A stretch of 63,277 bases of DNA, filler included, from Stramenopiles sp. TOSAG23-2 (taxonomy: Eukaryota): assembly GCA_900128395.1 (NCBI GenBank). It is 42 parts of 42 records of this genome, joined end to end, with 100 filler letters (N's around TTAATTAATTAA, not from the genome) between each part and the next. Parts side by side here need not be neighbours in the genome. Positions count along the whole stretch, not along the records: positions 25,756 to 27,165 come from LT652961.1; 41 more parts are not named here. One strand, 5' to 3'. The first letter of the stretch is position 1; every line of letters begins with the position of its first letter. Below the pieces are notes generated by a model that was given only the letters and a program-made list of their open reading frames with translations, was not told the origin of the DNA and did not search any database. A program made the position numbers and the translations under genes. Shown here in pieces: positions 1,521 to 61,253 of this stretch.

Positions 1521-2938
1521 TATGTTTTACCTGAACCAGCTGGACCGTAAATATGAATATTGTTAATTTTGTTGTTGTTATTATATTTCTTATAATATTC
1601 ATCTAGTTTTTTTTGCTGATCAGGTGTGAGAGTATCGTTTGCTAGTCTACCTTCTTCGCATATCATCCTTAACGTATTCAATAATTGTCTTCGTTCCGGT
1701 AGACAATTGATGTTGATATTTTTGCATCCTATCTTTGTAGCAATTTTTTGAACATCACCTATTTGCATCATACTAAACTTTTCTATCATATTATTAAGAT
1801 TTTCTGGATTCATCATGATATGTGTTTGAAATAAATTATAGAAAATTGCTCCGGTATGTTTTACTTCAGCATTACTAGCAGTATTATTATTATTATTATT
1901 ATTTTGTGGTTTTGCGCGTAATATTTCTTCTTTTTGTTTTTTTGGTACCAACGCTGCATTGTTTTTTATATTTGTTTGTAAAAGTGGGTTTATTCGTGTT
2001 GCAACAACACTGCCATCTTTCTGCAGTATCTTCGGTTTTGCGTTATAAATATTTTGAATGCTGGTTGCCCAAAAACCTACATCTCCCCTAAACACTGGCA
2101 TCATATTTATTTTTCCAATACCTTTTAAATATTCTTTGTTCGGAGGGCATTTATCAAGCATTTCACCTATTTTCTTTTTATGTTCGATATCATGTACCAC
2201 TACTAATGGCTTTCCATATTCGACTGCCCATTCTAATTCTTTCACGCAAAATGATCGGGTGAAATATAATGGTGACATTATTACAAGTACCAGATCAGAA
2301 CACATAATGCCTTCTTTCATCGCATCTTCATCCTGTTCGTGCATCCTTACATCTAACCAACATGTTTTTTCATACTGATCTCGCATCGAGTAAAACACAT
2401 CAAGTGCAATATCTTTCGAATCTGATTGCACATGCGATATAAAATAATCCCAATGTCCAGGATCATTCAAAATTGTAGTACTTGTTGTTGATGATCTATA
2501 TAAATCCATTTTTCCAACTTGTTTTTCAACATTATTATCGTCTTTTTTAACATGCGCTAAAATTTTATCGTTTTGTTTTTGAAGCTTAATATCTACATCC
2601 TTTGTCAAAGTTTTGTTCATATCTTGTTTTAAATTGTTACTATTGTTGTTGCTGTTATTATTGTTATTGTTATTACGATCGAAGCTTTGTTGCCTTGCAA
2701 GCAATACTTTTTCTGGGTCACCTGAATATGTAGTCTTCGATTTCCCCGCTATCTCTCTTATTATTGTTAAATCAGATCCCTTCTTCTGTTGATTTTGTTG
2801 TTGTTGCTCTAGTTCATCAACTCGACCATCAATCTTTACAACATCTCTTTCCAAGGCAATAATATTTTCCTCTAACTTGACATACTTTTCATAAATATCA
2901 TAATAAAATATTTTTAATCCTTCCAAATGTTCATTCAT
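1521..2938 (-). CDS. Coiled-coil + TIR (TIR_2-like) + small helical domain + start of P-loop NTPase (SF1-helicase-like), 3'-truncated
   Basis: WDYFISHVQSDS..CWLD..SDLVLVIMSPLYFTRSFCVKELEWAVEYGKPLVVV (TIR, ~2040-2451); LTPDQQ then IHIYGPAGSGKT Walker A at the contig end. Confidence 0.85.
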
Positions 2939-3042
2939 TTNNNNNNNNNNNNNNNNNNNNNNNNNNNNNNNNNNNNNNNNNNNNTTAATTAATTAANNNN
3001 NNNNNNNNNNNNNNNNNNNNNNNNNNNNNNNNNNNNNNNNAA

Positions 3043-4209: not shown

Positions 4210-4559
4210 AGGCCATACAGGTATGCCATGTATCCCCATAGAAGCTCGTTTACCATATTTTGGATGCTAAAATATATTCTGATGGTTAAATGCTAAGTTA
4301 TTTAATATATATACATATATATATGCATAACCATAACCAGACTTCATTGAGTCGCCCGCAAATGATATTTTAATATCTGATGCGGAACCACCTGATCCCG
4401 ATTATACCATTTATGTAGACACACAAGTTAATACTGTGCAACAGAGTCAAGCTTATTANNNNNNNNNNNNNNNNNNNNNNNNNNNNNNNNNNNNNNNNNN
4501 NNTTAATTAATTAANNNNNNNNNNNNNNNNNNNNNNNNNNNNNNNNNNNNNNNNNNNNC

Positions 4560-25655: not shown

Positions 25656-26316
25656 NNNNNNNNNNNNNNNNNNNNNNNNNNNNNNNNNNNNNNNNNNNNT
25701 TAATTAATTAANNNNNNNNNNNNNNNNNNNNNNNNNNNNNNNNNNNNNNNNNNNNATAGTTTATTTTAGTCATTTCTGTAAATTAATAATTTATTTAAGT
25801 ACAAATTTTAATGTATAAATTTGATGCCAGAAATTCTGCTATCCCTAATTTCTGAAAACAAGAAATGTCAAAATTATTTTGCCAATTGATAGGAAAAATA
25901 GTATACTAGTGGAGCCTAAGTTTAAAAAGCTATTTTCAATGTTTTTCCTTTGTTTTCATGTAATGAAATGAAAAATCCAACATCACAACAAGGAAATAGA
26001 AGAATTTAGGTTGAAAATGTTAGTTTTAATGAAATTTGATGAAAAATATGCGCGATGTAATGGTATGTACTGTTAAACAGCCAGAACCAACACTAATTAT
26101 AGATTTTTATAGAAAATGAATATGTACATATATATCAATAGTAGTATCCAAGATAATACATATAATGTTGCAAATACACATGCAAATGTGTTGGGATATA
26201 TATAAATACGAAATACAATTTATATATATTTACGTAAATAAATTGAAATAGAAATAATTACTCTTAATATCGTTGTAATATCGATATTATTACAACCTTT
26301 TTTTTTTTCTTCAACC

Positions 26317-26784
26317 ATGTCAAGATTATTATTAGAAGAAAATGTAGAAGAAAATAAAAAATGGGAAATTGATACTAGTGCAATTGAAATTCTTGGATAT
26401 ATCGGACGAGGTGCTTTTGCAGATGTACATAAAGGTACTTTATATGGAATGGATGTTGCAATTAAAAAACTTCATGCTCATACGAACGAAAAAGAGCGTG
26501 AACAAGCAAAATCATTATTACAGAATGAATTCAAAACGTTAAGTTTATGTCGACATCAAAATGTTGTACAAATATTAAATATTTGTTTCGAGCCACCTAT
26601 GCTTATATTGGCATTTGCAGAAAAAGGAAATTTAAGAAACCTACTCGAACACGAACCAAACATGTCCAAAGAAAAACGCTTTCAACTCGCATGTGGCATA
26701 TGTAATGGAATGGCAATGCTGCATAGTCGTAACATATTACATTTAGATCTAAAACCTGAAAATATTTTAATTAGGGAAAGATAA
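26317..26784 (+). pseudogene. Tyrosine-kinase-like protein kinase truncated after the catalytic loop (no DFG/APE)
   Basis: WEID, IGRGAFADV, VAIKK, HLDLKPENILI then a stop; breakpoint ~26770. Confidence 0.75.
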
Positions 26785-26827
26785 AAAAGAAGACGGACTT
26801 CTACAGGTTGAACGTGATCATAATGAA

Positions 26828-27165
26828 ATGGAAAACAAGCTTATGGGAGATATGCAACATGTGAAAAATGGAGCAGAGAAAAAGAAAAGTGCTGTATATA
26901 TTAAATGGGAAAAAGAATTTGATGGGAAGACGGGAGTGCATTTGGGTGGAAAGAACCTCACGGATGAGGATGCATTAGCTATTGGTGAATTGTTAAAAAC
27001 AAACAATACATTAACGTCATTGGACCTACATAGTAATAATATTACTGATGTACAAAGTATTGGTGAAGGATTAAAAATAAACAATACATTAAAGGAATTG
27101 ACCCTAGGTGGTAATAATATTACTGATGTACAAAGTATTGGTGAAGGATTAAAAACAAACAATAC
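26828..27165 (+). CDS. RNI-like 26-aa LRR protein (78-bp repeats), fragment
   Basis: LKTNNTLxxLxLxxNNITDVQSIGEG units start at 26993, 27071 and 27149. Confidence 0.9.
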
Positions 27166-27265
27166 NNNNNNNNNNNNNNNNNNNNNNNNNNNNNNNNNNN
27201 NNNNNNNNNTTAATTAATTAANNNNNNNNNNNNNNNNNNNNNNNNNNNNNNNNNNNNNNNNNNNN

Positions 27266-41899: not shown

Positions 41900-42245
41900 A
41901 ACTATATATACAAGATTTTCTTTAATGTTGAAAACATGCAAATATTCAGTGGCATATACTGGTGAATTGCAGGAAAAAACACTATTGCGGGAAGGTCAAG
42001 GTACATATCGTTACAAAAACTCTTAACTATATATATATCTAACAAGATTTTCTTTTTATGTTGAAAACATGCAAATATTCAGTGGCATATACTGGTGAAT
42101 TGCAGGAAAAAACACTATTGCGGGAAGGTCAAGGTACATATCGTTACAAAAACTCTTAACTATATATATATCTAACAAGATTTTCTTTTTATGTTGAAAA
42201 CATGCAAATATTCAGTGGCATATACTGGTGAATTGCAGGAAAAAA
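41900..42245 (+). repeat. 133-bp tandem repeat (2.5 copies) containing the 5' end of a MORN1-like gene
   Basis: ATGs at 41925, 42058 and 42191; unit encodes MLKTCKYSVAYTGELQEKTLLREGQGTYRYKNS*. Confidence 0.85.
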
Positions 42246-51271: not shown

Positions 51272-51502
51272 NNNNNNNNNNNNNNNNNNNNNNNNNNNNN
51301 NNNNNNNNNNNNNNNTTAATTAATTAANNNNNNNNNNNNNNNNNNNNNNNNNNNNNNNNNNNNNNNNNNNNAGAGAGAGATGGTGACGACAAGAGAAAGA
51401 AAGAAAGAAAGAAGATAATAAACAAATCATCATTTGAATCATTTATAGTTATTCATAGTTATAACATGAAATAAAGATATATATTATATATACACATTTA
51501 TA

Positions 51503-51974
51503 ATGCCATCGTCATCGATTACATCCGTTGATATTGAATCTGGTTTAAATACAGGGGATGCATTGTTAACCACTGTTACTGTTGGTGGTGCAGTTGTTGG
51601 TGGGGCCATTGCGGGAATGGAAAAAGTTGCACCAAAAAGTATTAAAAATAAAATGAAACGTCAAAAAAGTTATTTGAAGAAAAAAACAGAAGAGATAAAA
51701 CAAAATAATCCGGTGTGTGTTTTTTCTTCCCACTATATATATTTTGCAAGAAATTATATATATATAGTCGTACCCACGGAGGGTTACTACAAAAAATACA
51801 CATTTTGATATTATTTATAATTAATAATGGCATGTTGTTTATTATGCTTTAGTGATGCGCCGCATGAGAAAGATCAATTTGGAATGTACCAACGTAAATT
51901 CCAAGTGAATTTAATGGATGCATGTAATGCGGATCCATCATGTTGTTTATTTGGTTTCGTATGTCCATGTCCTA
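51503..51974 (+). CDS. Probable spliced PLAC8-like gene, 5' exons (exon boundaries uncertain)
   Basis: Exon ~51851-51974 reads FQVNLMDACNADPSCCLFGFVCPCP, followed by the donor-like GTTAGT. Confidence 0.5.
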
Positions 51975-52289: not shown

Positions 52290-52513
52290 TCATTGTCCAT
52301 CTTTCAGTTTAGTGAGATAGATATTACGTACTAGATATTATTGTCTTAGTTATTGTATTCTTTCTGGAGAGTAGGAATTATCAATGAGTAAAATTAAAAA
52401 ATCATTGTCCATCTTTCAGTTTAGTGAGATAGATATTACGTACTAGATATTATTGTCTTAGTTATTGTATTCTTTCTGGAGAGTAGGAATTATCAATGAG
52501 TAAAATTAAAAAA
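52290..52513 (+). repeat. Dispersed non-coding repeat family B, perfect 112-bp tandem duplication
   Basis: 52290-52401 equals 52402-52513; inverted copy at 58879-58981; partial at 24245-24292. Confidence 0.92.
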
Positions 52514-52771: not shown

Positions 52772-53118
52772 ATNNNNNNNNNNNNNNNNNNNNNNNNNNN
52801 NNNNNNNNNNNNNNNNNTTAATTAATTAANNNNNNNNNNNNNNNNNNNNNNNNNNNNNNNNNNNNNNNNNNNNACAACCACGACATTATAAGGATATACC
52901 ATTGCAAGATTGCAAGAATCACATGATGATGTCAACATAAACAGTGTAAAATGTTTTAAAACTAAAGTTTTTAAAAAAAATGTTTTTGTGTTAGGCACTG
53001 CTTATATAGTGTGTTTTTGTATTTTTAAAATTTTGTATTAGTATATTAGATTAGTATATAGAAAATAATTATATATAGGGGTATTGTAGTTGGTAGTATA
53101 TAAATATATATATATTAA

Positions 53119-53358
53119 TTATGATGTCTTTATCCTCATCAGTTCCACTTGTTGATACCCGTTTGATCCATCTCTTTTATATTGTTGTATAGCATTTAAT
53201 TGTGATATCATATTAGAACTAAGTTGATTATTACTTAGGAACAAGTATCTTAATGTATTGTTTGTTTTTAATCCATCAATAATACTTTGTATTCCACTAT
53301 CATCAGTAATATTATTATTATATAGGAGCAATGACGTTAATGTCTTGTTTGTTTTTAA
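53119..53358 (-). pseudogene. 5'-truncated LRR cassette or terminal exon (2 LRR units + C-cap), same family as 26828-27165
   Basis: LKTNKTLTSLLLYNNNITD..LKTNNTLRYLFLSNN..AIQQYKRDGSNGYQQVELMRIKTS*; homology begins abruptly at 53358. Confidence 0.75.
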
Positions 53359-54190
53359 TACAAGTACAATCAAGAACAATAAATGATATATACACATTTA
53401 ATGCTTACTATGTATACCGATCGATGTATATGTGTATGTGTGTGTGTGTATAGATATATATTATGAAATGTCTCCTATACTGTGTCCATGTTAATAATTG
53501 AATTAATGTCGGAGGGATATTTAATTTATATTCGACAACACAAAATAAGTACATAGATAGAAATGTGTACTCAAATGTATACCGGTGTATTGAAAGACTA
53601 TTTTCGATAAGATGCATTTATACATACATTTACCCTTAACACATTAATATGGCTAAAAAAGGACATTATATCATATAATTAATGAACTATAACTAAAGAA
53701 GTTTACATCACAGCATAGATAAGGTAATTGATTTATTTATGTATGCTTTTCCCTAATTATCCATAAATTGGAAAATACTTCGTAATAAAATATGAAAAAG
53801 TAACGATCTCTAACTTATACGCCACCGTACTTGTAGGTCACAATTATATACTAAAAAATATGGATATTCCTATATATAAAAAACTCACATACAAAATATA
53901 TCGAGTATCGTAATTATTATTTATACTAATAGTATTATTATTTGTAGTAATTATATATATAAAATAGTCGAAGGAATGTGATACTCGATCCATAAAACTA
54001 CATTTGGTTTGAATCTTTGCCGCGAAAAATGAAAAAAAGTTGAAAAATTTAATAAGCGATTGTCACCTATCAAATGACACGTAATTTGTACTTGAATGGG
54101 AAATCAGACTATTAAAAAATATCAAAAAGAAATTATGATATTATATAGGGATATCGTAGTTGGTAGTATATATATATATATTATTAATTA

Positions 54191-54274
54191 TTATGTCATT
54201 ATCACCATCCCTTCCACGTGTTCCACTTGTTGATACCCGTTTGATCCATCTCTTTTATATTGTTGTATAGCTTT
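54191..54274 (-). CDS. C-cap of a second, tandem LRR-family copy
   Basis: KAIQQYKRDGSNGYQQVEHVEGMVIMT*; coding and 3' flank 54142-54271 repeat 53072-53193. Confidence 0.85.
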   Translation of the reverse strand, partial: KAIQQYKRDGSNGYQQVEHVEGMVIMT

Positions 54275-54613
54275 ANNNNNNNNNNNNNNNNNNNNNNNNN
54301 NNNNNNNNNNNNNNNNNNNTTAATTAATTAANNNNNNNNNNNNNNNNNNNNNNNNNNNNNNNNNNNNNNNNNNNNATGCAATAATTTGAAACGTATTAAA
54401 ATATGTAACATTTTCTTTCACAGGTACTACCTTTTTACACTTCGTCTATTCCCTCCGTCATTTTCATTTCTATCTATTTCTTCTTCGATCAATTTAACCA
54501 TTCGAATTTTTTTTGACGACGATCCATCATTTTTAAGGGTTTTATTTGTTCTTTAAGGAATTTGTAATATTATGCAGATTTAGATTGAAGATGATTTTTC
54601 AGTGAGGTTTTAA

Positions 54614-57378: not shown

Positions 57379-57925
57379 TATTAGGATCAGCTTCACCTTG
57401 TTCAATTAAATATTTAACTACTTGGAAATGTTCGTTCTTTGCAGCAGCCATTAAAGGTGTCCTCCCATCATAATATGTATACCCCACAATCTGTTTCATC
57501 GTCATCTCACTTCCGGCACACTTTATATTGTTGATATATTTATGAAATGGATGTAACCTAAAAAAGAATTTAACACTCTCCAAATTCCCGTTTTTGCATG
57601 CTTGATAAAATACATACCTTCCATACTTTGCATATAAATCATATAAACGTCTTGGATTTTCAATCAAACGTTCAATACTCGATATAAAATTTATATCCCC
57701 ATTATTTTGTATTGTAAGTTGTTTTATTAAACATGATTCTTTTAAATTCAATATCGATTTTATATTTAGATATTTTATAATAATTTCAAACAAACCATGA
57801 ATATTACATACGGAATAGATAGTAGTTGTATCTGATTCTTTAACTTTTGTTTTCACATACGTTTTTATAAAATCTTCTGTATTTAGTATTTTCGTTACTA
57901 ATACATTTATTCTTTCAACTATCAT
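57379..57925 (-). CDS. F-box-like + ankyrin-repeat family protein, N-terminal part
   Basis: GLFEIIIKYLNIKSILNLK; ACKNGNLESVK; LHPFHKYI; GRTPLMAAAKNEHFQVVKYLIEQGEADPN. Confidence 0.85.
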
Positions 57926-58878: not shown

Positions 58879-58981
58879 TTAATTTACTCATGATAATTCC
58901 TACTCTCCAGAAAGAATACAATAACTGAGACAATAATATCTATCATATCTCAACTAAACTGAAAGATGGACAATGAATCGT
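58879..58981 (-). repeat. Dispersed repeat family B, inverted copy
   Basis: Reverse complement matches CGATTCATTGTCCATCTTTCAGTTTAGT..TTCTTTCTGGAGAGTAGGAATTATCA. Confidence 0.9.
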
Positions 58982-60378: not shown

Positions 60379-61253
60379 TTGCTTTTCCACCTTTTGAACG
60401 TAAAAGTGCAATGATCTCTTGGCGAATTGGACTACGATTATAATATGCACAGTCCAGGGGAGTGCGCCCCCCCCCCGTCCTTCTTATTAATGCTATTAAG
60501 AGTCATATGAGTTAATAACAATTGAATCAACTCGGTATTCTTTCCGTTCCAACGTGCTGCCCAATGTAATGCATTCCTTCCACCCCACAAATTATTAGGA
60601 TCAGCTTCACCTTGTTCAATCAAATATTTAACTATTTGGAAATGTTCGTATATTGCAGCTGCCATTAAAGGTGTATATCCAAAACCATTACTGCCTCTAC
60701 CGACTTGACTCACCATATCTTTCAATGTCACATCATCTCTGTAGCCATTCACATCACGATTAGTAATATACTTGTGAAAAGGATGAAGATTCATAAATAA
60801 TTCTACATCATCCATACGTCCGCGTTCACATGCACATACGATAGGTGTTGGTATTTGATCTTGATTCCATGATAATGTACCACGTGGAAACTCTCTTTGA
60901 TATCTTTCAATTAATAGATAAAGTCTTCTCGCTGGATGTGAAAGTCTCATCTCATTTATACTTCTTCTACCGTTATAATCAAGACTCAATGCTTCATCGC
61001 GAACACGTTCCAAATCATCAGATCCAAATTCTTTACTTAGTTGTTGCACTAAAGAAGATCGTTTCACATTACATAATGACTTAATATCTAAATATTGAAG
61101 CATATTTGTCATTATCCCACATGTTGACTCCACTCCAGCTGGTACAACAAATGAACCAATATAAATTTTTCGTAACGGTTTTTCTTTTAACGCTTCAATA
61201 GTTGACAACTTTAATCGTTTTGCCGGTGGTGAGTTAGTAGTTAAAGATGCCAT
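60379..61253 (-). CDS. F-box-like + ankyrin-repeat family protein with apparent +1 frameshift in a G10 run (60467-60476)
   Basis: GIMTNMLQYLDIKSLCNVK; LHPFHKYI; TPLMAAA; NALHWAA; removing one G gives GGGRTPLDCAYYNRSPIRQEIIALLRSKGGKA, matching paralogue 7595-7831. Confidence 0.88.

What the first reader, a model, noticed from the sequence alone, without database searches (positions are those of the whole stretch)
26993..27165. LRR family with invariant nucleotide framework and hypervariable surface codons (VLR-like repertoire?)
Seen: four units on two unlinked contigs (26993 and 27071 on +; 53358 and 53271 on -) share tta aaa aca aac aat aca tta-x-x-ttg-x-cta-x-x-aat almost base for base, including synonymous sites. 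The x codons differ by multiple bases: acg tca/aag gaa/acg tca/aga tac; gac/acc/ctc/ttc; cat/ggt/tat/agt; agt/ggt/aat/aat. The last three columns keep the third base (NNC, NNT, NNT). Established: these xxLxLxx positions form the ligand-binding concave face. The contig ends on exactly 55 nt of framework (27111-27165), as expected if many copies share it. Inference: a large diversified receptor repertoire made by repeat shuffling or gene conversion plus strong positive selection, or by targeted mutagenesis.
Basis: partly seen in the sequence, partly recalled or inferred. Interest (0 to 1): 0.8.

Follow-up and report, generated by a model that had tools for sequence, protein, structure and literature searches.

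The report
Hypervariable LRR sensor family, marine protist
Two short contigs hold pieces of a large gene family of an uncultured marine flagellate in which a nearly invariant leucine-rich-repeat tail varies only at five ligand-facing codons per repeat, as a fast-diversifying receptor repertoire would.

Summary
The window is a chain of about 42 contigs of ~1.4 kb from an AT-rich flagellated eukaryote. The units are 78-nt (26-residue) NLR/ribonuclease-inhibitor-type LRRs. Contig 25756-27165 holds the N-terminal cap plus 2.2 units of a stereotyped C-terminal module. Contig 52874-54275 holds its last two units, the C-terminal cap and a second gene's end.

In 32 related metagenome loci the same module follows unrelated N-terminal domains: kinase, TIR, TIR-helicase, caspase, ankyrin, SidE-type phosphodiesterase. 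In 62 distinct units, codon choice in the framework is almost fixed and specific to each position (L10 is TTG in 62/62, L12 is CTA in 59/62). Codons 8, 9, 11, 13 and 14 (xxLxLxx) are near saturation in bases 1-2 but keep base 3. Their pN is 0.35-0.63 against a framework pS of 0.078.

Syntenic alleles differ by 0.9-1.1% outside the module and by 6.9% inside it. Module dS is 4-6 times lower than in the N-terminal parts of the same paralogues.

Best reading: a germline family kept uniform by exchange between copies, with diversifying selection on the concave face, like the highly conserved repeats of fungal NLRs. No support was found for VLR-like assembly or a linked reverse transcriptase; targeted mutagenesis is not excluded.

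The parts
26317..26781 (+). N-terminal half of a protein kinase domain, ending at HLDLKPENILI and running into a stop
   Evidence: Pfam PF07714, 1.7e-25, profile positions 3-137 of 258 only. 84% nt identity to the kinase-TIR-LRR gene of locus L007.
26774..26775 (+). Junction where 1115 nt present in the L007 gene (rest of the kinase plus a TIR domain) are missing; the reading frame changes here
   Evidence: blastn: 26142-26774 matches L007 420-1056 and 26775-26885 matches L007 2172-2282. Junction sequences were compared. L007 is kinase + TIR_2.
26775..26884 (+). Linker (EDGLLQVERDHNEMENKLMGDMQHVKNGAEKK) shared with the TIR-type genes L002 and L007
   Evidence: 91-92% nt identity to L002 and L007.
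26885..26992 (+). N-terminal cap of the LRR module (KSAVYIKWEKEFDGKTGVHLGGKNLTDEDALAIGEL)
   Evidence: 13 copies aligned; codon choice is nearly fixed; variable codons are 16, 18, 20 and 21 of the cap alignment. A strand and a helix are predicted there in the model of a relative.
26993..27070 (+). LRR unit 1 (LKTNNTLTSLDLHSNNITDVQSIGEG); variable codons at 27014-27019, 27023-27025 and 27029-27034
   Evidence: Pfam LRR_4 28.2 bits (cut-off 27) and LRR_6 24.3 bits (cut-off 23.4) for the fragment.
27071..27148 (+). LRR unit 2 (LKINNTLKELTLGGNNITDVQSIGEG); variable codons at 27092-27097, 27101-27103 and 27107-27112
   Evidence: (family D18, 78-nt spacing).
27149..27165 (+). Start of LRR unit 3, cut by the contig end inside shared framework
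53272..53358 (-). Penultimate, 29-residue unit type (LKTNKTLTSLLLYNNNITDDSGIQSIIDG). Nothing module-like lies upstream of it on this contig.
   Evidence: The same unit type stands before the last unit in 15 aligned copies.
53122..53271 (-). Last unit plus C-terminal cap (LKTNNTLRYLFLSNNQLSSNMISQLNAIQQYKRDGSNGYQQVELMRIKTS); stop codon at 53119-53121
   Evidence: 122 of 150 candidate clusters match this part.
53065..53118 (-). About 50 nt of 3' flank after the stop, conserved between family members
   Evidence: 12 blastn hits in 11 loci, 11 of them at 85-96% identity (the second L005 hit is 80%). 87% identical to 54135-54181 (family D13).
54194..54275 (-). End of the C-terminal cap of a second family member (KAIQQYKRDGSNGYQQVEHVEGMVIMT), cut by the contig end; stop codon at 54191-54193
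   Evidence: tblastn.
54133..54190 (-). Conserved 3' flank of that second member
   Evidence: 83-93% identity to 10 loci over about 50 nt; 79% over 142 nt to an eleventh, L002.
1521..2940 (-). N-terminal (TIR-bearing) part of a TIR-helicase-LRR family member on a third contig
   Evidence: Pfam TIR_2, 1.3e-07. 93.8% nt identity over 994 nt to L005, which is Peptidase_S74-TIR-helicase-LRR.

Best explanation
The units belong to a large, germline-encoded family of an uncultured, AT-rich marine flagellate and its close relatives. Each member ends in one stereotyped sensor module: an N-terminal cap, then 1 to about 8 LRRs of 26 residues (LKTNNTL-xx-L-x-L-xx-NNITDVQSIGEG), a 29-residue penultimate unit, a last unit, a C-terminal cap, and about 50 nt of shared 3' flank. 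The N-terminal parts are unrelated signalling or cell-death domains: kinase, TIR, kinase-TIR, TIR-helicase, caspase, ankyrin, SidE-type phosphodiesterase. The module DNA is kept almost identical in all copies by exchange between units and between genes (gene conversion or unequal crossing-over, i.e. concerted evolution). Diversifying selection keeps amino-acid changes at five codons per unit, which lie in and just after the beta-strand of the concave face. The result is many proteins with one scaffold and different binding surfaces, each wired to an effector domain. This is most likely an intracellular non-self (virus, parasite or prey) recognition repertoire. Shown here: the family, the module, the near-fixed codon choice, the hypervariable codons with dN far above dS, the excess divergence of the module between syntenic alleles, the lower dS of the module than of the rest of the same genes, the ordinary chromosomal neighbourhoods, and the LRR fold. 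Inferred: exchange as the homogenising mechanism, selection rather than targeted mutation as the cause of the hypervariability, ligand binding at the concave face, and an immune role.
For: FRAMEWORK. In 62 distinct units the codons are position-specific and nearly fixed: L1 TTA 57/62, L10 TTG 62/62, L12 CTA 59/62, N4 AAC 57/62, N5 AAT 50 of 50 Asn, T3 ACA 53/55, T18 ACT 52/57. Different codons for the same residue at different positions rule out codon bias as the cause.

DIVERSITY PER SITE. Nucleotide diversity in framework positions 1/2/3 is 0.048/0.059/0.089. In variable codons it is 0.581/0.558/0.206. At four-fold framework sites it is 0.047-0.168. Nei-Gojobori gives framework pS 0.078 and pN 0.062, and variable codons pN 0.35-0.63, which is 4.4-8.1 times the framework pS. 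Unit pairs within a locus (69) are as different as pairs between loci (1819).

CAPS. The caps are equally uniform: 13 N-caps with pS 0.098 and 15 C-caps with pS 0.056.

SAME GENE PAIRS. For L004/L005/L010 the N-terminal dS is 0.42-0.56 and the cap dS is 0.09-0.135. For the window against L007, the kinase pS is 0.199 (18/90.5) and the linker plus cap pS is 0.078 (3/38.7); Fisher p = 0.12.

ALLELES. For the syntenic loci L001/L015 the flank differs by 0.9% (30/3316), the N-terminal part by 1.1% (7/612) and the module by 6.9% (13/188, 12 non-synonymous), p = 2e-7. For L008/L015 the figures are 1.0% and 6.4%. For L002/L007 they are 2.4% and 9.6%.

ARCHITECTURES.

NEIGHBOURS. Of the 20 flanking ORFs scanned, 16 match ordinary housekeeping-type families (eIF2B-epsilon-like, NatA auxiliary subunit, DNA ligase I, ALG6/8, JmjC and others) and 4 match nothing.

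FOLD. The AlphaFold2 model of the L009 module has pLDDT 95.1 and pTM 0.90, with strands at unit columns 9-11. The best structural matches are LRRC34, the NOD2 LRR, the NLRP1 LRR and ribonuclease inhibitor.

PRECEDENT. The same regime is described for fungal NLR repeats (PMC4986451, passages read; PMC13449251, passages and section 12 read).
Against: 1. No exchange event was seen directly. None of the 62 units is identical to another. Sharing of variable codons between units only slightly exceeds column shuffles: 78 pairs share 3 or more against 58.5 expected, and 14 of 500 shuffles reach that.

2. The third base of the variable codons is kept more strictly than 'any amino-acid change is favoured' predicts. 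K/E/Q/M/W make up 2 of 194 residues in column 14, 14 in column 13 and 24 in column 11. That could instead point to a mutation process limited to bases 1-2.

3. All DNA comes from short-read assemblies of amplified or mixed material, so unit order and the link between an array and its N-terminal domain may be chimeric in some contigs.

4. Function is inferred from domain content only.

5. The window itself holds only broken copies: contig A has an internal deletion, and contig B has a copy without an N-terminal part.

6. The lineage is unplaced. The nearest named relatives of a flanking DNA ligase are 33-40% identical.
Confidence: 0.68

Rival explanations
1. A recent burst without continuing exchange. 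The module spread lately, by duplication and domain shuffling, onto many N-terminal domains. The framework is uniform only because the copies are young, and positive selection changed the variable codons afterwards.
For: Unit distances are star-like. Pairs within a locus equal pairs between loci, and no unit lineages are visible. The conserved block has sharp limits and includes about 50 nt of 3' flank, as a duplicated DNA segment would.
Against: Paralogues whose N-terminal parts have dS 0.42-0.56 still have cap dS of 0.09-0.135, so the module is younger than the genes that carry it. Alleles that are 99% identical outside the module are 6-7% different inside it, which needs turnover that is still going on.
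Confidence: 0.13
2. Programmed, targeted mutagenesis of the first two bases of five codons per unit (DGR-like, deaminase-based or polymerase-based), so the variability comes from the mutation process and not from selection.
For: Bases 1-2 of the variable codons are near saturation while base 3 stays. This holds even in four-fold codons: column 11 keeps C in 18/19 and column 13 keeps T in 15/16 (counted). NNY codons avoid stops, as in DGR targets (recalled knowledge). The variable codons assort almost independently.
Against: No reverse transcriptase, transposase or deaminase was found in 20 of 20 large flanking ORFs. The framework is rich in adenines that do not vary (AAA, ACA, AAC, AAT), unlike a DGR template. 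The targets would be hundreds of units in dispersed genes. Columns 8 and 9 use NNG/NNA, and one copy has TAA at column 9 (L010). Trp (TGG) occurs at NNY columns, so third-base changes do happen.
Confidence: 0.07
3. VLR-like assembly: incomplete genes are completed by copying units from silent cassettes.
For: Contig B carries a headless copy (two units plus C-cap) about 0.8 kb from another gene's end. Headless or truncated arrays also occur in L013, L016 and L022.
Against: Fourteen loci carry a module that reads through to the C-terminal cap and stop, and 7 of 7 of those scanned have an N-terminal domain in the same frame. No cassette arrays lie within 4 kb of the genes. The caps are not the cysteine-rich LRRNT/LRRCT of VLRs. 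The organism is unicellular.
Confidence: 0.03
4. Assembly artefact: collapse or chimeric joining of repeats in short-read, amplified-DNA assemblies creates an apparently uniform framework.
For: The contigs are about 1.4 kb and end in the repeat. At least 7 of the 32 loci end inside an array at a contig end.
Against: The same pattern appears in independent assemblies from several sources: several WGS sets, JGI and ENA metagenomes, and eukprot proteins. All five variable codons lie within 21 nt, so each set is read in one piece. Assemblers join real words and do not average them.
Confidence: 0.03

Closest known systems
Highly internally conserved (HIC) WD40/ANK/TPR repeats of fungal NLRs (HET-E/HET-D/NWD family; Dyrka et al. 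2014, PMC4986451; PMC13449251, 2026)
   Same: C-terminal superstructure-forming repeats that are nearly identical to each other within and between paralogues. A few hypervariable codons per repeat lie on the binding surface under diversifying selection. N-terminal cell-death or signalling domains vary. Repeat number differs between alleles. Concerted evolution is the proposed cause (passages read).
   Different: Here the repeat is an LRR. The close family has no NACHT or NB-ARC ATPase (0 of 10 scanned). The caps and about 50 nt of 3' flank are homogenised too. Repeat identity at protein level is 75% on average, below the 85% criterion, because 5 of 26 residues vary. RIP, a fungal mutator, does not apply.
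Ectocarpus LRR-ROCO and NB-ARC-TPR candidate receptors (Zambounis et al. 2012, PMC3341825; PMC11378527, search listing only)
   Same: A protist-grade lineage with a birth-and-death family of LRR proteins. Positively selected sites lie on the concave face. Shuffling of repeat units is the proposed source of diversity (passages read).
   Different: In Ectocarpus each LRR is a separate 72-nt exon and shuffling works through exons and introns. Here the 78-nt units are contiguous in one ORF. No ROC-COR GTPase was found. The near-fixed synonymous sites were not found in the passages I read.
[quoted passage not shown]
   Same: An LRR scaffold with an invariant framework and hypervariable concave-face residues enriched in Tyr, Asp, Asn, Ser, His and Trp (the VLR side is recalled, and is mentioned in PMC3341825).
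   Different: VLR genes are incomplete in the germline and are assembled somatically from flanking cassettes. Here complete genes are present. The repeat subtype is different (RI/NLR-like), as are the caps.
LRR domains of animal NLRs (NOD2, NLRP1, NLRP3) and ribonuclease inhibitor
   Same: The closest solved structures and sequence profiles. PDB profile E-values are 1e-25 for RI and 2e-25 for NOD2. Foldseek TM is 0.76-0.78 to the NOD2 and NLRP1 LRRs. The module is a C-terminal sensor behind effector domains.
   Different: The unit is 26 residues instead of 28-29. There is no NACHT in the close family. Nucleotide uniformity between units is extreme.
Diversity-generating retroelements (DGR)
   Same: Variation is confined to the first two bases of NNY-type codons on a ligand-binding surface, with an invariant scaffold (the DGR side is recalled).
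   Different: There is no reverse transcriptase nearby and no template/variable repeat pair. The adenine-rich framework does not vary. The host is a eukaryote, and there are hundreds of dispersed targets.

Membership tests
Leucine-rich repeat, RI/NLR-like subtype | Periodic LxxLxLxxNxI motif with Pfam LRR matches above the curated cut-offs | tested here: met
   Window fragment: LRR_4 28.2 bits (cut-off 27) and LRR_6 24.3 bits (cut-off 23.4). The 78-nt period is shown.
Leucine-rich repeat, RI/NLR-like subtype | Curved solenoid with one short strand and one helix per unit; similarity to solved RI/NLR LRRs | tested here: met
   Model of the module of relative L009: pLDDT 95.1, alternating strand and helix. 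Matches to the NOD2, NLRP1 and RI LRRs. The window's own pieces are too short to model.
HIC repeats of NLR-type receptors | Repeats over 85% identical at protein level over at least 100 residues (criterion in PMC4986451) | tested here: not met
   Mean identity within a locus is 74.8%, and 2 of 69 pairs reach 85%. Nucleotide identity is 86%, and identity over the 21 framework columns is 87%.
HIC repeats of NLR-type receptors | A few hypervariable positions per repeat on the binding surface, with dN above dS | tested here: met
   Columns 8, 9, 11, 13 and 14 have pN 0.35-0.63 against framework pS 0.078. They lie in and next to the strand.
HIC repeats of NLR-type receptors | Exchange of repeats within and between paralogues; repeat-number polymorphism | tested here: inconclusive
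   Module dS is lower than N-terminal dS. The alleles L001 and L008 differ in unit number and content. No tract or donor was identified, and sharing of variable codons is only weakly above chance.
HIC repeats of NLR-type receptors | Central NACHT or NB-ARC ATPase | tested here: not met
   0 of 10 family ORFs scanned carry one. PF05729 appears only in more distant hits of 38-54% identity.
Variable lymphocyte receptor system | Incomplete germline gene flanked by donor cassettes | tested here: not met
   Complete ORFs run from N-terminal domain to stop. The flanks hold mostly ordinary housekeeping-type genes and no cassette arrays.
Variable lymphocyte receptor system | Somatic assembly that differs between cells | not testable with these tools
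   This needs long reads from single clonal cells. Only contigs of public runs could be laid.
Diversity-generating retroelement | Reverse transcriptase and a template repeat next to the variable repeat | tested here: not met
   No RT in 20 of 20 flanking ORFs of at least 250 residues. Smaller ORFs and the whole genome were not searched.
Diversity-generating retroelement | Variation at all template adenines only | tested here: not met
   Framework adenines are invariant: AAA 60/62, AAC 57/62, ACA 53-56/62.
Ectocarpus-type exon-shuffled LRR-ROCO | One LRR per 72-nt exon, and a ROC-COR GTPase | tested here: not met
   Units of 78 nt are contiguous in single ORFs. There is no Roc or COR match.

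The most novel reading that the evidence does not exclude
A single-celled marine eukaryote has a programmed diversification system. It rewrites only the first two bases of five codons in each LRR unit, or swaps units from a silent pool. This would give a VLR/DGR-like anticipatory receptor repertoire wired to TIR, caspase, kinase and helicase effectors.
Probability: 0.07. Interest if true: 0.95.

Novelty: new variant of a known kind. Interest (0 to 1): 0.68.

Why it matters
If the reading holds, an abundant uncultured ocean flagellate carries a receptor repertoire of at least a hundred distinct members (122 clusters at 90% identity). All members share one LRR scaffold and differ in their binding surfaces, and each is coupled to domains known from cell-death and immune signalling.

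That would extend the mode of receptor diversification described for fungal NLRs and brown algae (conserved repeat, hypervariable sites) to LRRs of a unicellular marine predator. It would also give a clean natural data set for asking how non-self recognition evolves without an NLR ATPase.

The near-fixed synonymous sites, together with allele-level turnover, make the question 'selection or directed mutation?' directly testable with long reads.

There is a practical point as well. The 53-nt shared framework breaks short-read assemblies, so the family is probably under-represented in protist genome catalogues.

Tried and rejected
- OWN GENOME. None is held, so no genome-wide copy count could be made.
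- RNA GENES. Rfam and tRNA scans of the window found nothing.
- LAY_READS. Only contigs were available. The tool warns that summed depth is not a copy number. The table of other letters was cut at 26939, before the LRR part, so no per-site variant list was obtained. No listed contig piece spans the 26774/26775 junction; pieces stop at 26773-26774 in X2, X3 and X4. That is no proof of absence.
- OTHER COLLECTIONS. Exact framework patterns were absent from viral contigs and from prokaryote genomes. There is therefore no sign of a viral or bacterial carrier at that stringency.
- PROTEIN ATLAS. The best score was 0.76, to bacterial BspA-LRR/caspase clusters. This is below the level the tool treats as a lead.
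- LINEAGE PLACEMENT. A flanking DNA ligase has named relatives only at 33-40% identity, so the lineage stays unplaced.
- LITERATURE. The motif strings LKTNNTL, NNITDVQSIGEG, LKTNKTL and NNITDVQ occur in 0 papers. A search on LRR, TIR, caspase and protists returned only biomedical reviews. In a search on uncultured marine protist genomics, 11 of 12 listed papers have 0 occurrences of 'leucine-rich repeat'. Supplementary files were not consulted and may hold family lists.
- CODON BIAS as the cause of framework identity. Rejected, because the same residue uses different fixed codons at different positions.
- REPRESENTATIVE SEARCH. 548 hits at E up to 0.001, but most match only generic LRR. By my count of the listed rows, roughly 30-35 of the best 150 cover the whole C-cap.
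Full report
WHAT THE WINDOW IS. The 63,277 bases are not one molecule. They are about 42 contigs of 1.40-1.42 kb, sorted by length and joined by N44-TTAATTAATTAA-N44 spacers, with 26-45% G+C. The long ORFs are ordinary eukaryotic genes: dynein heavy chain, SLC12, kelch, WD40, an IQ protein. No RNA genes were found. The finding lies at the 3' end of contig A (25756-27165). Its partner units lie on contig B (52874-54275).

THE OBSERVATION. The 21-nt framework occurs 4 times with at most one mismatch, against 0.08 expected by chance. The units are spaced 78 nt apart. The last 55 nt of contig A repeat 27033-27087 with one mismatch. Pfam calls the fragment LRR_4 and LRR_6, just above their cut-offs.

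WHAT THE TWO CONTIGS ARE. A protein search with the contig A frame returned 81 relatives, from marine metagenomes, a eukaryote protein set and unnamed NCBI records. Their sequences show one stereotyped C-terminal module:
- a cap, ...SAAYMKWEKEFDGKTxVxLxGKNLTDEDALAIGEL;
- a variable number of 26-residue units;
- a 29-residue unit ending in NNITDDSGIQSIIDG;
- a last unit that runs into NNQLSxNMKSQLxAIQQYKRDGSNGYQQVxxMxIxT and the stop.

Contig A holds the cap and the first 2.2 units. Contig B holds the last two units with the C-terminal cap, and also, at its other end, the last 27 codons of a second member. About 50 nt after each stop are conserved too, at 87% within the window. Eleven of the 12 hits in 11 related loci are 85-96% identical; the second hit in L005 is 80%.

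A third contig, 1521-2940, is the TIR-bearing N-terminal part of another member. It is 93.8% identical to L005.

Contig A is a broken copy. Its kinase part matches L007 420-1056 and its linker matches L007 2172-2282, so 1115 nt (the rest of the kinase and a TIR domain) are missing and the frame shifts.

RELATED DNA. A scan of metagenome contigs with the translated cap and units gave 32 loci, most at 65-84% protein identity. The window's other contigs match these loci at 80-94% nucleotide identity, so they come from close relatives.

Ten family ORFs were scanned against Pfam. The N-terminal parts were:
- SidE-type phosphodiesterase (L003);
- Peptidase_S74-TIR-helicase (L004, L005); L010, whose ORF is cut at its 5' side, shows TIR-helicase only;
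- kinase (L006);
- kinase-TIR (L007);
- caspase (L009);
- ankyrin (L014);
- two with no recognised N-terminal domain.

None has NACHT or NB-ARC; PF05729 appears only in more distant hits. Twenty large flanking ORFs were scanned. Sixteen match ordinary housekeeping-type families (eIF2B-epsilon-like, NatA auxiliary subunit, DNA ligase I, ALG6/8, JmjC, histidine phosphatase and others) and four match nothing. None is a reverse transcriptase, transposase or deaminase.

THE NUCLEOTIDE PATTERN. I took every 26-codon unit whose protein sequence matched at least 4 of 7 head residues and 8 of 12 tail residues. This criterion does not look at synonymous sites. It gave 62 units, all different, from the window (2) and 24 loci. 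The distant loci L025-L032 contributed none. The two C-terminal unit types were analysed separately.

Framework codons are nearly fixed, and the fixed codon differs by position:
- Leu is TTA at columns 1 and 7, TTG at column 10 (62/62) and CTA at column 12 (59/62).
- Asn is AAC at column 4 (57/62) and AAT at column 5.
- Thr is ACA at columns 3 and 6 and ACT at column 18.

Codon bias cannot produce that.

Nucleotide diversity is 0.05-0.09 in the framework, and 0.047-0.168 at four-fold sites. It is 0.58 and 0.56 at the first two bases of codons 8, 9, 11, 13 and 14, but 0.21 at their third base. Nei-Gojobori counting gives framework pS 0.078 and pN 0.062. The variable codons have pN 0.35-0.63, which is 4.4-8.1 times the framework pS before any saturation correction. 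Unit pairs within a locus are as different as pairs between loci.

The caps behave the same way. Thirteen N-caps and 15 C-caps have almost fixed codon choice, with a few variable codons placed at their own xLxLx positions.

On a wider protein sample (194 distinct units in 123 proteins) the same five columns carry 1.8-3.4 bits of entropy. The residue classes show that the third-base class is kept there too.

IS THE MODULE YOUNGER THAN THE GENES? For the three TIR-helicase paralogues, the N-terminal parts have dS 0.42-0.56 and the caps 0.09-0.135. For the window copy against L007, the kinase has pS 0.199 and the linker plus cap 0.078. The counts are small (3 against 18 synonymous differences) and p = 0.12. 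Over all paralogues with unrelated N-terminal domains, cap pS is 0.056-0.098.

IS IT TURNING OVER NOW? L001 and L015 are syntenic loci from two assemblies. They differ by 0.9% in 3316 nt of flank and 1.1% in the N-terminal part of the gene, but by 6.9% in the module. Twelve of the 13 module differences are non-synonymous (p = 2e-7). L008/L015 give 1.0% against 6.4%. L002/L007 give 2.4% against 9.6%. Alleles also differ in the number of units.

Two arrays carry an in-frame stop: TGA at column 26 in L005, and TAA at the variable column 9 in L010.

STRUCTURE. A model of the L009 module, built from an alignment of 13 modules, has pLDDT 95.1 and pTM 0.90. It has one short strand and one helix per unit, and the strands cover unit columns 9-11. 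The nearest solved structures are LRRC34, the LRR domains of NOD2 and NLRP1, and ribonuclease inhibitor. That the x positions of LxxLxLxxN face the concave side is established knowledge about LRRs. I could not inspect the model's coordinates.

FAMILY SIZE. The C-terminal cap finds 122 of 150 candidate clusters at 90% identity, nearly all of them singletons. Among representatives at 50% identity there are 548 hits, of which by my count roughly 30-35 of the best 150 cover the whole cap.

In four public runs, 301-747 contig records lie on contig A at 80% likeness or more. The bins of the LRR part collect summed depths of 3,300-117,000, against 6-700 in the kinase part. The tool warns that this is not a copy number. 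Loose ends at 27037 and 27128 continue into C-cap-type and penultimate-type sequence, so the framework is followed by different continuations in those runs (table 7).

The exact 53-nt framework occurs 12 times in 8 of the 32 loci. That explains why short-read contigs end there; at least 7 of the 32 loci end inside an array.

INTERPRETATION. The data fit a germline family whose sensor module is kept uniform at the DNA level while five codons per unit are driven apart. The module being younger than its genes, the sharp limits of the conserved block (including non-coding 3' flank), and the allele-level turnover all point to exchange between copies. Exchange itself was not observed. No two units are identical, and variable codons assort almost at random (78 pairs share three or more, 58.5 expected, 14 of 500 shuffles reach this).

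The retained third base follows from low neutral divergence if selection acts on rare first- and second-base changes. But it is stricter than 'any replacement is good' would predict. A mutation process limited to those bases therefore stays open, at low probability. Against it stand the invariant adenine-rich framework, the dispersed targets, the missing reverse transcriptase and the stop codon at a variable column.

Strict VLR-like assembly is not supported, because complete genes exist.

An assembly artefact is unlikely. Independent assemblies agree, and each set of five variable codons lies within 21 nt.

COMPARISON WITH WHAT IS KNOWN. The closest described regime is the highly conserved WD40, ANK and TPR repeats of fungal NLRs. 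These show concerted evolution, repeat shuffling and positive selection at a few surface positions (PMC4986451, passages). A 2026 survey reports such repeats, LRRs included, in other taxa, mostly with ATPase domains (PMC13449251, passages and section 12).

The case here works like that system but fails two membership features. Protein identity between repeats averages 75%, below the 85% criterion, and there is no NOD ATPase.

The brown-alga LRR-ROCO family is the nearest protist-grade analogue, but it shuffles 72-nt exons (PMC3341825, passages).

I found no paper holding the motif strings. Papers on genomes of uncultured marine protists listed do not use the term leucine-rich repeat in 11 of 12 cases. 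Supplements could not be read.

VERDICT. This is a new variant of a known kind of diversification. It is of clear interest for protist immunity, and there is a small chance of something more unusual.

Noticed in passing
window 25756-26084: The 5' end of contig A is a second high-copy element. Summed contig depth is 800-65,000 in all four runs, against 0-700 in the next bins. It has no match in the 32 related loci or elsewhere in the window, and no long ORF.
   Followed up: partly
window 26774/26775: Contig A is an internally deleted, frame-broken copy of a kinase-TIR-LRR gene. 1115 nt present in L007 are missing, and the junction shares only 1-2 bases. It is either a pseudogene or a chimeric join; I could not tell which.
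   Followed up: partly
L005 about 4415-4417; L010 about 4286-4288: In-frame stops inside otherwise intact arrays: TGA at unit column 26 in L005, and TAA at the hypervariable column 9 in L010. The units downstream are still in frame.
   Followed up: partly
L003:3-2258: One family member joins a SidE-type phosphodiesterase domain (Pfam PF12252, 6.4e-21) to the LRR module. This domain is best known from bacterial effectors, so it is unusual in a protist gene.
   Followed up: no
window 26818-27213 (- strand) and the same place in several loci: The antisense strand of the LRR arrays is also open for 130-230 codons (for example L003:1478-2113:- and L017:3911-4540:-). This is probably a by-product of the repeated framework having no antisense stop.
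   Followed up: no
window 52290-52513 and 58891-58942: A 112-nt tandem duplicate, 100% identical, whose 52-nt core recurs inverted at 98% on another contig.
   Followed up: no
window 41916-42245: A tandem repeat of 133 nt, 2.5 copies at 95-98%, running to the contig end.
   Followed up: no
window 57379-57460 and 60593-60674: Two contigs share 82 nt at 93% inside ankyrin-repeat ORFs (TPLMAAA..HFQ.VKYLIEQGEADPN). Ankyrin-LRR members of the family exist (L014), but no link was shown.
   Followed up: no
window 51372-51723: This stretch matches the region just upstream of the LRR array of L023 at 86.5%. It is possibly the N-terminal part of a further family member.
   Followed up: no
L010 5733-7761 and L019 1104-3088: Two loci of one assembly share 2 kb of flank at 93.4%. 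The cause is either a segmental duplication or two strains co-assembled. It bears on how far 'paralogue' and 'allele' can be told apart in these data.
   Followed up: no
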